DNA of 64,000 nt. It comes from Tricharina praecox (lineage: Eukaryota). Below, in pieces: positions 58,082 through 64,000 of the stretch. A program made the translations under genes and the position numbers. How positions within the stretch are numbered: the first letter of the stretch is position 1; each line of letters starts with the position of its first letter. Location: positions 682,001 through 746,000 of the forward strand of contig NW_026250411.1 of the NCBI RefSeq assembly GCF_024521635.1, written 5' to 3'. Below the pieces are notes generated by a model, which was given only the letters and a program-made list of their open reading frames with translations, was not told the origin of the DNA and did no database searches.

Positions 58082-60335
58082 ATGCCCATCGCCGCCACGA
58101 CCGTAGCTACGCAGATGGCCACCTTGGCTACACAAGGAGCCTACGCACTGCTGAGTACGGGCGCCCCTCCCCCTCTATCTGCACGTGCGCAGCTCTCTAA
58201 TGGGGGTTGAAAGCTAACAGACCGCAGAACGAGAAGCCGAAGAACCGGATACGGATGGTACGCCCTCCTCCTCCCCCGTCTGCCCGCCGTACCACCTCCG
58301 CGACTGACGAGCCGAAACTACCCTACAGAACCGAAAGATGTCGAGCAGTCGGAGATGCTCGCGTCGTGGGCGCTGTTCATCCAGGTGTCGCTGGTGCTGT
58401 TGGCGCTGTTTTTCAGCTACTATCTGCAGCTTAAGAAGATTCAGGCGGTGCATGAGACTGTTGTTTCGATCTTTGCGGGTATGCGATACATGTGTGTAGG
58501 TTGAGGGGAAGGGTCGCTGACAGGCGGTAGGAATGTTTGTCGGCTTGATTATTCGGGTTACTCCTGGAGAGTATCTGCAGAGTCTCGTCAAGTTCGACTA
58601 CCAGATCTTCTTCAACGTTTTGCTGCCGCCTATCATTCTGAACTCGGGATATGAATTGCACCAGGTGCGTTGTATCTGTGCGCGCTGAAGGTGGAGGAAC
58701 GGGGGAGTGAAGTGGTTGCTGACGGCGACGGTGCGCAGGCAAACTTCTTTCGGAATATAGGCTCGATATTGACGTTCGCTTTCGCCGGGACGTTTATCTC
58801 GGCGTGGACACTCGGAATCATCATCTACATCTGGTCGCTGACGCCGTTTGAAGCGCTCAACATCACCTTTGTCGAGGCGATAAGCGTGGGTGCAACCCTT
58901 TCGGCCACGGATCCGGTCACAATTCTGGCGATCTTCAACGCGTATAAGGTCGATCCGAAGCTGTATACTGTCATCTTTGGAGAGAGCATTCTGAACGATG
59001 CGGTGGCTATCGTCATGTTCGAGACGGCCCGACACTTCCATGGTGCGGAACAGGCTACCATAGGGAGTCTGTTTAAGGCCATTGGTGTCTTCTTCGTGGT
59101 GTTCACTGTCAGTTTGCTGATTGGCGTGCTCGTCGGCATTGGAACGGCGCTGTTGTTGAAACATACATACATGCGGCGCTTCCCGGGGATTGAGAGTTGT
59201 TTCATCCTGTTGGTTGCATACGCATCGTACTTGTTCTCCAACGGCTGCAGCATGTCTGGTATGCATATATCACATCCTCTATCATACAGCCCAGCTGACA
59301 TCCCTAGGAATTGTCTCTCTACTGTTCTGCGGCATCACGCTGAAGCACTACGCCTACTACAACATGTCACGGCGCACACAGCTGACGACGAAATACCTGT
59401 TCCAAGTGCTTGCGCAGCTCTCTGAGAACTTCATCTTCATCTACCTAGGGCTCTCCCTCTTCACCGAAACGAAACTCGTCTTCCGACCCGTCCTGATCCT
59501 TGTAGTCACCATCGGAATCTGTGTCGCCCGTTGGGCTGCCGTCTTCCCACTATCAAAGCTCATCAACCTCGTAATCCGCAAACGCGCACAAGCGCGCGGA
59601 AAGCCCGGCGCCGAGGAGCTCCCCCACAGTTACCAAGCTATGCTCTTCTGGGCCGGACTCCGCGGGGCAGTTGGTGTCGCGCTCGCAGCCGGCTTCACAG
59701 GCGATAACGGCAACTCCCTGCGCGCCACGGTCCTGGTCGTGGTCGTCCTCACCGTTATCGTCTTCGGCGGGACAACCGCACGCATGCTTGAGATTCTTGG
59801 GATCAGAACCGGCTGCGTTGAGGAACCAGATTCCGACGACGAGTTCGACATCGAGTCCACTGGGCGCTTCTACAAGTCCAACCCGAACGGCTTCGACGGC
59901 TTTGGCAACACCCCCGCCGTTGCGCTTGGCGACGTGGGAGCGGGCGGGTACGCTTCCGGTCAGCAGCGGCCGTCGCCCTCGGGCCGCACCCCGTCGGAAC
60001 GACGCGCGAACGTCAACACCGACTTCCTGGCCGAGGAATCGGACGCCGAAAGCGACGCGAGCGATCTTCCGCCGCCTGCGGCGGCGAGGAGAAATACCCT
60101 CTTGGCCTCCACCCCGCCAGTGCTCGAGGACATCGGCAGCGGAAGCAGCAGCAGCAATACTCCCCAGCCACAGGGCGCGCTCAGTCAACTCAGCGGGATA
60201 TTCTCCGGCACGAGCGATGATCAGGCCGAGTGGTTCCGGAAGCTCGACGAGGGGTTTATCAAGCCGAAGCTACTGCTGGATCAAGGCGGGCGTGCAGGGG
60301 GTGGGGGGAGTGGGAGTGGCGGAAATGGGCTATGA
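58082..60335 (+). CDS. NHX1: Endosomal Na+(K+)/H+ antiporter, multi-exon
   Basis: FFNVLLPPIILNSGYEL, LSATDPVTILAIF, IFGESILNDAVAIV, LSENFIFIYLGL, WAGLRGAVGVALA. Confidence 0.96.
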
Positions 60336-60703: not shown

Positions 60704-61762
60704 GTTCCGCAAATTAGGCACTCGGCCTCGTCCTGTTGCGCCGTTTGGGTCTGTCGTCCTCATGCATCCGCTCAACCTCTTGCCGCAGTGTCCCTTCGCT
60801 CCCCCCACCAGGCACTGCGGTAAATTGCTCTCGGATCCTGCATGATGATGATACTTCAAGGAGGGGTGACAGTCTGTGGTTGCCATTGCCGCCACCATAT
60901 ACTTTACACACAACAACTGTGCATGATCCCCGACGCCTATCACAGTCAATCGCCACGATACCTACATCATGGATCAGACAACCAGGCCTCCTGTTTCCAT
61001 ACGCTCATCACCGCACCCAGTCCCACGTAACGCGACGCAAATACCTCTCCCTAACGCCGATTCCTGCCACGTCTTCACAGTTCCGAGTTCCCGGTGTTTC
61101 CTACCACATACCGCGCCCCACCATGGTCCATGACAAGCTACAGCCTACAGGCTACATCCAGCGCCCAATCTCACACCAATCACCGCGCACCGCGCCCCCA
61201 CCGCGCCCCCAGCACAGCACAGCCAGCACAGCCCACTCGCAGTCTCGCACATGACCACGCGAGCGTCTCGCGTTCGCCGAGAAGCTCGAAGCTTATCCCA
61301 CTTACAAGTTCCCACTTCCACTTCCCACTGCCCACTTCCCACTGCCCACTGCCCACTGCCCACTTATCACTTTCCGCAAGTGGATGGGTGGTTGCAATTT
61401 CCAGGATCGCGATGACTCTTACAGTCCCCCCATCTGTGACTCACGACCAAGCAATCTAACCCTTGCAGCAAGGAACGAAACACCATAGCCCTCAATGCCT
61501 GCCTGCCTGCCTGACGAATTTTTTGCGCGACGCGACAGGACACGACGCGACGCGGGGGCCGGCCGACACGGACGCGGACGCGAGCGCGACGAGGGACGGA
61601 GTCAATCAATCGAGAATCCAATATACGCATGGAGAGTGGGGATGTATATAAGACGGCGTGTTCGCCAGCTGGGTGGCGGTGTTCGGAATCACCAGTCCAG
61701 CAGAAACAATCTCGAGATATCTATCTACTATATCTACAGTATACTAAAGCCAATCACGAAAA

Positions 61763-63369
61763 ATGGCTCGCACCACTCGCAGCAGCACGCGCAGCGCCAA
61801 GCCCGCCCGCTCCGCGCAAGCACAAGCACAAGCACAAACGAAGCCTTCGGCGGTGGAATACCAGGCCCTGGCGCTCCTCGACGAGACGCGGGAGGACCTC
61901 GGGTCTAGTATCGACGATGACTCCGGCGACGATAAGGACTTGCCCTTGGCTATTGTAATTACCCTTCTCATTCTTCTTCTCCTGCCAGACAGACAAGACA
62001 TTGAGATTGGGACTGAAACTGACATCCACAGAACGGCATCGCCCCGAGAACGGCGCTGAAGCCCGGCGCAACGCACCAGCGTGGCGCATACACTATCGAG
62101 AACCGCGGCGGCAGGTATACATGCAGCTGCGCGGGCTTTGGATGGGGGCGCTTGGTGGCCGGCGCGAAGGCGACGACGTGTGCGCACCTGGTACTGCTGC
62201 TGGGCGGGAAGTATGAAGAGGCGCGGGCGAGGGCGGGGCTGGGTGAGGGTGTGCATGAGGATGAGGATGAGGAGATGGAGGATGCGGATGCGGAGGAGGA
62301 GGAGGAGGAGGAGGAGGAGGAGGAGGAGGAGGAGGAGGAGGAAGAGGTTGTTGCGCCGAAGAGGAAGGCGAAGGCCACGGCTGCGGCTGCGGCTACGCAA
62401 AAGAAGCGGAAGGCCCCCCCGGTCGTGGACGACGACGAAGAGGACGACGAGGAAGATGCCGCCCCCGCCGCTGCAACTCCCGCCGCCGCCTCACCCTCAC
62501 CCGCCAAACGAGCGCGAGTCGCCCGCGCCCCCGCCGCCAAGCCCGCCGCCAACGGCGTGTTCAAGCCGCTCCTGGCGCACAAGTGGGATCTCGACACGGG
62601 GATCGATCCGGCGGGCTGGCTGATGTCGGAGAAGCTCGACGGGGTGCGAGCGATTTGGCACGGCGACAAGGGAGTGTTCCTCAGCCGCGAAGGCAACCCG
62701 TTCTACGCGCCCCCGTGGTTCACGAAGCGGTTTCCGCGGGGGAACATCAAGCTCGACGGCGAGCTGTTCACGGTCCGCGGCGGGTTCCAGGACTGCGTCA
62801 GTATTGTCCGCGCGCACAACCGTCCGGACCGCTGGAAGTTCTCCGTCAGCTACCAGGTCTTCGATGTCCCCACCATGGCGGACCAGCCGTTCGAGGAGCG
62901 CCTGAAGTGGCTTAAGAGAAGGTTTGATGGCGGCAAGGATGCGATCCGCTGGGTCCATGTGCTGCAGCACGAGACGTGCAAGAGCAAGAAGCACCTAATC
63001 GACCGGCTCGACGAGGTGTGCGCGAACAAGGGCGAGGGCATGATGCTGCGGCAGGCCGGCAGTCTGTATATCCAGGGCCGCTCGCGGAGTCTGCTCAAAG
63101 TCAAGCGGTTCCTGGACGCCGATGCGATTGTGAGAGCGCATGAGGGCGGCTCGGGGAAGAATGTTGGCGTGTGTGGCGCCCTGAGGGTCGAGATGCTCGA
63201 TGACAAGGGGGATCCCACGGGAAAGCTGTTTAAGGTCGGCAGTGGATTCACCGATGCGCAGAGGAAGGTGCCGCCGAAGATCGGTGCCACTATCATCTAT
63301 CGCTACCAGGAGTTGAGCAACAGTGGCACGCCGAGGTTCCCGACGTTTGTGGGCGAGAGGGCGGATTAG
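61763..63369 (+). CDS. Minimal ATP-dependent DNA ligase (LigE/PRK09125-like) with N-terminal SWIM-type zinc finger; 2 exons (intron 61955-62031)
   Basis: Motifs I SEKLDGVRA, III LDGELF, IIIa VFDVP, IV EGMMLR, V LLKVK; OB domain FKVGSGFTD..R..PP.IG..I.YRYQELS..G.PRFPTF; upstream YTCSC-x16-CAHL. Confidence 0.92.
62293..62342 (+). repeat. (GAG)n coding repeat (poly-Glu in the ligase linker)
   Basis: About 16 consecutive GAG codons. Confidence 0.95.
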
Positions 63370-63570
63370 GTTATTTTGTGCTTGCTTGCTTGATTATGAC
63401 TTTATATTCTGCTTCTGCTTCTTCTTCTCATTTTGGATGGAATAGGGTCTTCTGGATGTTGTATTAGTATTGCACCTGCTTGCTTGTCATGATGATTGAA
63501 CAAATGAAGAAAGATATCACACATCAAGTCATACATCAATTCCCACCATGATATGTACCGTTCGTTCGTT

Positions 63571-64000
63571 TTACTCAGCAATAGGCGTAGCCTCGACAAC
63601 CCTTCTAATCCCCTCCTTAAACGCCTTCAGCGCGGCCTCTTCCTGCACTTTGATCTCGCGCTCAAACGCCGCCATGCGTTCCTTGGACTTGCGCAAGATC
63701 TGTTCGCGCGGTGCCGCAGCTTGCTGTTCCACCCACCCAGTCATTATTTGTCTGTTGCGATTTTCCCAGGATGGGAGAGAGATATACGGTGTGCATTCTC
63801 GACCGCAGTCTCAACTTCCTCACTTCCGCCAGCGACGTGCGATCACCATCACCACCCTCTTCCCCTTGTGCAGTAGCCGCAACGGCTTCACGTCGGCGGA
63901 ACTCACGGATCGTGCCGTCGACGTCGACGCCGATCTCTCTCGAGCGCGTGGAATGAGTGAACAGGGAGTTCTCTTCCAGCAGTTCATCGTGCGCATCCAC
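63571..64000 (-). CDS. 3' end of a hypothetical coiled-coil protein continuing beyond the window
   Basis: Final exon reads IMTGWVEQQAAAPREQILRKSKERMAAFEREIKVQEEAALKAFKEGIRRVVEATPIAE*; upstream exon structure unresolved. Confidence 0.45.

What the first reader, a model, noticed from the sequence alone, without database searches (positions are those of the whole stretch)
61763..63369. Bacterial-type minimal ATP-dependent DNA ligase with SWIM finger, adapted as a fungal nuclear protein
Seen: a ~270-aa NTase+OB ligase with no DNA-binding domain or BRCT, so it is neither Cdc9/Lig1 nor Lig4. Splicing intron 61955-62031 reveals a CxC-x16-CxH finger (YTCSCAGFGWGRLVAGAKATTCAHL..GKYEEAR) that the ORF track truncates. 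A poly-Glu linker and NLS-like motifs (PKRKAK, KKRK, PAKRAR) follow, and the catalytic exon is intron-free and GC-rich. Established: such compact ligases typify bacterial LigE/PRK09125 and viral enzymes, while model ascomycetes rely on Lig1 and Lig4. Inference: a third, little-studied ligase, either acquired horizontally or patchily retained, where SWIM may act as a nick or damage sensor in an undescribed repair route.
Basis: partly seen in the sequence, partly recalled or inferred. Interest (0 to 1): 0.7.

Follow-up and report, generated by a model that had tools for sequence, protein, structure and literature searches.

The report
Fungal LigE-type ligase with zinc finger
This is a real fungal gene for a small DNA-nick-sealing enzyme of an already published family (eukaryotic ligase E), inherited within fungi rather than recently taken from bacteria, and its zinc finger is an old, untested part shared with bacterial relatives.

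Summary
Observation confirmed: a two-exon, 509-aa gene with a CxC-x16-CxH finger, an acidic linker with basic clusters and a LigE core (PRK09125 270 bits, cut-off 200; model vs LigE 6gdr rmsd 2.2 Å). A relative keeps the intron in place. The host is a Pezizomycete by its homologs.

The interpretation needs three corrections. (1) The family is published as eukaryotic LigE/LigK (PMC10665377, whose supplement lists Pyronema and Tuber members). (2) The finger is not a fungal add-on: it precedes the ligase in 76 of 80 bacterial loci. (3) Recent transfer is rejected (AU p 1.5e-7); an ancient transfer into ascomycetes is not (p 0.065-0.07). It is also one of five ligase-domain genes here, not a third.

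Relatives fuse the core to PARP, WGR, PBZ, WWE and BRCT, which points to accessory single-strand-break repair. I found no paper on the finger; here it is conserved (dN/dS 0.14) but has lost the family's Pro, Arg and Lys. The scan noted the same module earlier in another genome (e1-4964015).

The parts
61413..61442 (+). Two TGACTC sites (61413, 61437) in an upstream block kept in the relative; Gcn4/AP-1-like by recall
   Evidence: L089 has two at 1829 and 1845
61530..61582 (+). Five ACGCG (MCB-like by recall) in 53 nt, the densest cluster in the window; partly a short tandem repeat
   Evidence: GCGACGCG kept in L089
61763..61954 (+). Exon 1, 64 aa: basic Ser/Thr-rich start, then acidic stretch
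61955..62031 (+). Intron, 77 nt, GT..AG with ACTGAC branch-like site
   Evidence: same place in L089, 57 nt with in-frame stop
62032..62235 (+). SWIM-like zinc-finger domain: three strands, CxC (62122-62130), CxH (62179-62187), two helices; divergent copy
   Evidence: dN/dS 0.14
62236..62559 (+). Low-confidence (likely disordered) acidic linker with poly-Glu and basic clusters PKRKAK 62356, KKRK 62401, PAKRAR 62500
62560..63105 (+). Nucleotidyltransferase domain: motif I SEKLDGVR (Lys at 62632), DGELF, FDVP, EGMMLR, LLKVK
63106..63369 (+). LigE-type OB domain (OB_2) with GSGKN (63148) and FKVGSGFTD (63229), then stop codon
63452..63522 (-). Spliced 71-nt GT..AG intron of the convergent minus-strand neighbour, behind its presumed stop; the spliced contigs run on over the ligase exon

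Best explanation
A fungal member of the eukaryotic ligase E (LigK) family, of the leaderless finger-bearing subtype, inherited vertically at least through Pezizomycetes and probably from a much older eukaryote. It most likely acts as an accessory nuclear nick-sealing ligase in single-strand-break and base-excision repair. Shown here: intact gene, all catalytic motifs, purifying selection, LigE fold, no signal-peptide-like leader. Following from established LigE chemistry: the motif I lysine (Lys265 of the spliced protein) is adenylated by ATP, AMP passes to the 5' phosphate of a nick and the 3' OH seals it, with the two domains clamping DNA without encircling it. Inferred: the basic clusters import it into the nucleus; the finger, on a flexible tether of about 110 aa, is a zinc-bound targeting module that brings the core to breaks or to a repair partner; MCB-like promoter sites tie expression to S phase or damage.
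For: PRK09125 269.9 bits over cut-off 200. Best PDB sequence hits are the three LigE structures; model vs 6gdr TM 0.92 by target length, rmsd 2.2 Å. dN/dS 0.053 core, 0.14 finger, 0.24 linker against L089. 50-row tree: Pezizomycetes 100/100, with Orbiliomycetes 88/96, 31 of 32 eukaryote rows in one clade 100/97; Morchella+Tuber 97/90 and Peziza+Kalaharituber 100/91 follow the fungal families as I recall them. Window alone with prokaryotes rejected p 1.5e-7; its four-member Pezizales group p 5e-10. Relatives are fused to PARP catalytic+regulatory+WGR, WGR, PBZ, WWE, BRCT, FHA and a weak NADAR hit. The genome encodes a PARP. Rotifer LigE is nuclear, radiation-induced and contributes nick sealing; Mortierella LigE is induced by X-rays (PMC10665377). 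Leader hydropathy 1.2 vs 2.2-4.0 in 18 gammaproteobacterial LigE.
Against: No activity, localisation or expression of the 5' exon was measured. This protein has no PBZ, WGR, WWE or BRCT, so the link to PARP is by relatives only. Its finger has lost residues found in most of 95 homolog fingers (Pro 81, Arg 94, Lys/Arg 88) and scores lowest of 12 tested against the family profile, 31 bits vs 32-67. The first Lys and the aromatic residue of the LigE G-K-G-K-aromatic motif are replaced (GSGKN). Deep tree nodes are weak: Dikarya 51/44, fungi not monophyletic in the free tree, and transfer into all Pezizomycetes (p 0.070) or all Ascomycota (p 0.065) is not rejected.
Confidence: 0.7

Rival explanations
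1. Same enzyme, but the finger in this lineage no longer senses DNA: it is a structural or protein-docking remnant, and the core works alone as a back-up ligase.
For: Conserved Pro, Arg and Lys of the finger are replaced and two residues inserted; the finger changes about three times faster than the core in dN (0.17 vs 0.046); classical LigE seals nicks with the core alone (PMC6144786).
Against: All four putative zinc ligands, the Trp and the G..E..R helix are kept in both window and L089; dN/dS 0.14; net charge of the domain is +7 against a median of +2 in bacterial and viral fingers.
Confidence: 0.3
2. The ascomycete gene came by its own ancient transfer from Myxococcota/Planctomycetota-type bacteria or a large virus, one of several independent transfers into eukaryotes, as PMC10665377 considers plausible.
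For: The nearest non-eukaryotic relatives have the same finger-ligase layout; AU tests do not reject Pezizomycetes or Ascomycota grouping with prokaryotes (p 0.070, 0.065); Cymbomonas, Seminavis and two unnamed protist rows fall outside the main eukaryote clade; the catalytic exon has no intron.
Against: The best trees put ascomycetes inside a eukaryote clade (100/97; SH-aLRT 82); a shared I-N-G-[IV]-K-P-type motif precedes the finger in ascomycetes and basidiomycetes; codon GC is native.
Confidence: 0.15
3. It is a mitochondrial DNA ligase, like kinetoplastid LigK.
For: The first 30 residues hold 6 Lys/Arg, 9 Ser/Thr and no acidic residue; LigK was first described in kinetoplastids and is related (PMC6264785, PMC10665377).
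Against: Several basic clusters lie in the linker; Orbiliomycete and agaric homologs in the alignment start about 10 residues before the finger domain; rotifer LigE is nuclear; the genome's Lig1 has an Arg/Leu-rich upstream extension that could serve mitochondria (read by eye, no predictor run).
Confidence: 0.07
4. It is an mRNA capping enzyme or RNA ligase, as the database label 'DNA ligase/mRNA capping enzyme' might suggest.
For: The label on many homologs; weak RNA_ligase Pfam hits on some homologs.
Against: No capping-enzyme or RNA-ligase Pfam hit on this protein; it passes the PRK09125 cut-off; the top fold matches are all DNA ligases.
Confidence: 0.02

Closest known systems
Eukaryotic ligase E / LigK (AvLigE of Adineta vaga, MvLigE of Mortierella; PMC10665377, PMC6264785)
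   Same: PF01068 + PF14743 core; patchy spread over fungi, protists and some animals; the paper's supplement lists Pyronema, Tuber, Ascobolus, Terfezia and Dactylellina members.
   Different: No PBZ here; an N-terminal SWIM-like finger instead, which neither main text mentions (0 hits for SWIM). I did not compare this protein directly with AvLigE or MvLigE.
Leaderless Myxococcales/Planctomycetes NT-OB_2(-WGR) ligases (PMC8455567 cluster c; PMC7470946 sub-cluster of #3)
   Same: No leader, 44-52% identity in the best segment for most loci, same finger in front (76 of 80); both papers note that fungal sequences group with them.
   Different: Intron, long acidic linker with basic clusters, no WGR (a WGR-type motif in 19 of 80 bacterial ORFs by a strict pattern), divergent finger.
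Classical periplasmic LigE (Psy-Lig 4d05, Ame-Lig 6gdr, N. gonorrhoeae 8u6x)
   Same: Fold and catalytic motifs; F-basic-I-G-S-G-F-x-D motif present as FKVGSGFTD.
   Different: No signal-peptide-like leader; G-K-G-K-aromatic motif changed to GSGKN; finger present here but in 0 of 18 gammaproteobacterial LigE ORFs.
SWIM zinc finger (PF04434; Shu2/SWS1 type, PMC6316741)
   Same: CxC..CxH ligand pattern after a small beta sheet; 47 of 61 family fingers hit PF04434 at E up to 1, best 4.7e-4; a three-finger relative passes the cut-off.
   Different: This copy has no Pfam hit; the Ala of CxHxxA is absent here and in the family consensus; no solved structure matched.

Membership tests
LigE-type ATP-dependent DNA ligase (PRK09125) | NTase domain PF01068 plus OB_2 domain PF14743, no helical DNA-binding domain | tested here: met
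LigE-type ATP-dependent DNA ligase (PRK09125) | Catalytic motifs I, III, IIIa, IV, V intact | tested here: met
LigE-type ATP-dependent DNA ligase (PRK09125) | ATP-dependent adenylation and nick sealing | not testable with these tools
   needs an assay
Classical periplasmic LigE | N-terminal signal peptide | tested here: not met
   hydropathy 1.2 vs 2.2-4.0 in 18 gammaproteobacterial LigE; a simple window score, not SignalP
Classical periplasmic LigE | G-K-G-K-aromatic lysine fork | tested here: not met
   GSGKN; first Lys in 15 of 18 gammaproteobacterial LigE and 0 of 29 closest homologs
Classical periplasmic LigE | F-basic-I-G-S-G-F-x-D motif | tested here: met
   FKVGSGFTD
Eukaryotic LigE/LigK | LigE core in a eukaryotic nuclear gene, grouping with fungal members | tested here: met
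   intron, fungal neighbours, tree; Tuber borchii and Ascobolus immersus occur both in my tree and in the paper's list
Eukaryotic LigE/LigK | Damage induction and nuclear localisation | not testable with these tools
   shown for rotifer (both) and Mortierella (induction) in PMC10665377; here only motif hints
SWIM zinc finger (PF04434) | CxC..xn..CxH ligand pattern | tested here: met
SWIM zinc finger (PF04434) | Profile match over the curated cut-off | tested here: inconclusive
   none for this copy; weak hits for 47 of 61 relatives; Atlas neighbours at 0.83-0.84 are SWIM-labelled, a lead only
SWIM zinc finger (PF04434) | Fold match to a solved SWIM domain | tested here: inconclusive
   best Z 2.6; no Foldseek match at E up to 0.001; model pLDDT 70
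SWIM zinc finger (PF04434) | Zinc binding | not testable with these tools
   needs metal analysis
Lig1/Cdc9 and Lig4 | Helical DNA-binding domain, A_C-type OB domain, BRCT pair (Lig4) | tested here: not met
   dnl1 model 38 bits vs cut-off 218; the genome's Lig1 and Lig4 are separate genes
mRNA capping enzyme | PF01331 catalytic domain | tested here: not met
   no hit among 13 families at E up to 1

The most novel reading that the evidence does not exclude
Finger-bearing LigE is an ancient, vertically inherited extra eukaryotic DNA ligase family, kept in early-branching ascomycetes and lost in yeasts and the common moulds. It is the ligase arm of a PARP-coupled single-strand-break pathway that exists in fused form in bacteria (finger-ligase-WGR-PARP in one chain), and its SWIM-like finger is an uncharacterised sensor of DNA breaks or ADP-ribose, doing the job that the PARP-type finger does on Lig3.
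Probability: 0.3. Interest if true: 0.6.

Novelty: new member of a known kind. Interest (0 to 1): 0.3.

Why it matters
The gene itself is an ordinary member of a published family. What stays open is the finger: it is very tightly tied to this ligase across bacteria, large viruses, fungi, molluscs and protists, is repeated two to four times in some mushrooms, matches no solved structure in my searches, and was not discussed in the papers I searched. The tree also favours one old eukaryotic origin with many losses over repeated transfers. If the finger is a break or ADP-ribose sensor, it would explain how a minimal ligase is aimed in cells and would define a repair route that yeast and mould models seem to lack. 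This divergent copy is a natural variant for such a test.

Tried and rejected
RNA evidence for the 5' intron: no holder is on record as RNA. Two runs guessed to be RNA gave contigs over 62406-63600 and 62584-63600 with no other letters and a spliced minus-strand intron, but nothing left of 62406, where a repeat was skipped. They do not test intron 61955-62031 and cannot tell the ligase transcript from the neighbour's read-through.

Fold of the finger: profile search of PDB sequences best E 0.17; Foldseek none at E up to 0.001; VIA-align best Z 2.6. No conclusion either way.

Standalone fingers: of the best 150 of 1390 profile hits, 44 carry ligase motif I, 82 end within 110 aa of the finger (probably fragments) and 24 are other, several of them visibly frameshifted ligases. 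I could not count true standalone fingers.

Tree: the bootstrap run with the mixture model on 93 rows did not finish; bootstrap and AU values come from 50 of those 93 rows under LG+G4. The 93 were chosen by hand from 367 cores.

GC-richness as a sign of transfer: rejected. The idea that the finger replaces the lysine fork: not supported, since finger-bearing viral ligases keep the first Lys in 10 of 12 and finger-less ones in 3 of 66. The first fork count used a wrong pattern and was redone. The ACGCG cluster exceeds random placement (0 of 2000), but that test ignores its tandem-repeat nature. Cultured phages: 221 records match, all under 60% identity and none over 80% of the query. Literature searches for SWIM with ligase listed no paper on this finger. 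Scan notes by sequence and by place were empty.

Full report
Gene structure. The gene runs from ATG 61763 to the stop at 63369 on the + strand, with one 77-nt GT..AG intron at 61955-62031, giving 509 aa. Without splicing the frame stops after 98 aa, and the first in-frame ATG of exon 2 lies behind the finger. Four donor/acceptor pairs keep the frame. The metagenome scan confirmed 1 relative among 58 pattern matches, L089, 92% identical in the core. It has a similar exon 1 and an intron at the same place with the same ends, 57 nt long and containing a stop. The spliced junction rebuilds a motif seen before the finger in 43 of 120 homologs. Splicing is therefore well supported by comparison but not shown in RNA. 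The gene sits between a Na+/H+ exchanger and a convergent gene without a Pfam hit. The closest named homologs are Sphaerosporella and Trichophaea, so the host is a Pezizomycete, probably near Pyronemataceae (family placement recalled).

The catalytic core. Pfam finds DNA_ligase_A_M and DNA_ligase_OB_2. NCBIfam PRK09125.1 scores 269.9 against a cut-off of 200, and no other ligase model passes its cut-off. The best PDB sequence hits are the three LigE structures. The predicted model (mean pLDDT 82, core blocks 87-98) matches DNA-bound Alteromonas LigE 6gdr at rmsd 2.2 Å. Motifs I, III, IIIa, IV and V are intact. Of the two DNA-binding motifs described for LigE (PMC6144786, passages), F-basic-I-G-S-G-F-x-D is present and G-K-G-K-aromatic is changed to GSGKN; none of the 29 closest homologs has the first Lys. 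Against L089, dN/dS is 0.053 in the core, 0.14 in the finger and 0.24 in the linker (one pair, synonymous sites near saturation).

The finger. It is absent from 18 of 18 gammaproteobacterial LigE ORFs examined. So it is an old part of the leaderless subtype and not a fungal addition. What the fungal forms add is a long acidic linker with basic clusters (20 proteins picked by hand). The SWIM label is reasonable but weak: 47 of 61 fingers hit PF04434 at E up to 1, the window's does not; some database names already read 'SWIM-type domain-containing'; no solved structure matches. The Ala of the CxHxxA consensus (PMC6316741, passages) is missing. The window's copy keeps the four ligands and the Trp but has lost Pro, Arg and Lys that are at least 90% conserved in the finger alignment, and L089 shares these changes.

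Functional context. Longer relatives join the same core to break-sensing and ADP-ribose modules (roles of these domains recalled). In 20 hand-picked proteins, Pfam found PARP catalytic + regulatory + WGR in 2, and WGR, PBZ, WWE, BRCT, FHA and a below-cut-off NADAR in others (full list of 45). Some agaric proteins carry two to four tandem fingers. The window's protein has none of these extra domains, but its genome encodes a PARP. Upstream are five ACGCG sites in 53 nt and two TGACTC sites, both partly kept in L089; ACGCG sites also lie near the apparent starts of the genome's Lig4 and Lig1. Reading these as MCB and Gcn4/AP-1 sites is from recall and is only a hint.

Other ligases in the genome. 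The PF01068 search gave 8 matches: Lig4 twice (3630 identical bases on contigs C40 and C73), Lig1, a second Lig1-like gene, another ligase-domain gene and this one (identities read from the sequences by eye). Only this gene matches PF14743, and an agaric homolog finds only this locus.

Origin. GC3 is 0.87, within the 0.79-0.90 of four native genes. In the 50-row tree, Pezizomycetes form a clade (100/100), join Orbiliomycetes (88/96), and 31 of 32 eukaryote rows form one clade (100/97), with Cymbomonas outside. The 93-row mixture-model tree, SH-aLRT only, gives Pezizomycetes 99, with Orbiliomycetes 93, Dikarya 89, and a main eukaryote clade 82 that includes one long viral row and leaves four protist rows out. 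AU tests reject the window alone (p 1.5e-7) or its four-member group (p 5e-10) joining prokaryotes. They do not reject all Pezizomycetes (p 0.070) or all Ascomycota (p 0.065) doing so, nor fungal (p 0.082) or eukaryote (p 0.44) monophyly. Rows were hand-picked and the root is not secure, so no donor is named. All 19 named ascomycete hits among the 120 listed are Pezizomycetes or Orbiliomycetes (2842 hits in all, many rows unnamed). The LigE rows of the Nicolas supplement show the same two classes, and PMC6264785 reports absence from Saccharomyces, Schizosaccharomycetes and Neurospora. Loss in later-branching ascomycetes is likely but was not tested on genomes.

What is known. PMC10665377 (abstract, passages, section 7, part 1 of 2 of the Discussion, term searches of 4 supplement files) names the family eukaryotic ligase E, shows nuclear, radiation-induced AvLigE with a contribution to nick sealing, and induction in Mortierella. 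PMC6264785 (passages; supplements not searched) calls it LigK and finds it in many fungi. PMC8455567 and PMC7470946 (passages) note that fungal sequences group with leaderless Myxococcales and Planctomycetes ligases, many with WGR. The word SWIM occurs in none of these four main texts, nor in the four supplement files of the first. Figures were not visible, and their domain drawings may show the finger. Five searches (listings only) found no paper on the finger; subscription journals are mostly not covered. An earlier scan note (e1-4964015) describes the finger-LigE-WGR fusion in another genome as an ordinary, untested family member; it agrees with what I had already found.

Verdict. A real, intact, conserved gene; a new member of a known family; most likely an accessory nuclear repair ligase (0.7). 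The open point is the function of the finger, which belongs to the whole subfamily rather than to this locus. Interest 0.3.

Noticed in passing
window 63452-63522 (- strand): A spliced 71-nt intron behind the presumed stop of the convergent neighbour; the spliced contigs continue over the ligase's coding exon, so the two transcripts overlap or one reads through antisense.
   Followed up: partly
L001 and L002 (G000 C40:20658-24287, C73:18875-22504): The Lig4 locus is present twice with 3630 identical bases: assembly redundancy or a recent duplication.
   Followed up: no
L005 (G000 C83:918305-921937): A further ATP-dependent ligase-domain gene that by eye is neither Lig1 nor Lig4; possibly one of the long fungal ligases mentioned in PMC7470946.
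   Followed up: no
P0275, P0280 with P0087, P0276 (tree): Oomycete LigE groups with Glomeromycota at 100/97, which hints at a eukaryote-to-eukaryote transfer.
   Followed up: no
P0282, P0290, P0291, P0297: Proteins with finger, LigE, WGR, PARP regulatory and PARP catalytic domains in one chain; two are named as Acidobacteriota-group bacteria.
   Followed up: partly
P0272, P0273, P0123, P0143, P0121, P0125, P0265, P0198: Tandem copies of the finger: two to four in mushroom-type ligases, three with an A20 finger and WGR but no ligase, two behind a cyclin domain, eight SWIM-like repeats in one protein.
   Followed up: partly
L090, L095, L097, L104, L108, L110, L169: Finger-bearing LigE on viral contigs of 320-527 kb; whether jumbo phages or giant viruses was not determined.
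   Followed up: partly
window about 58200-60335 (+): Intron-containing Na+/H+ exchanger gene upstream of the ligase.
   Followed up: partly
window 61310-61365: Short tandem CCCACT-type repeat in the intergenic region (seen).
   Followed up: no
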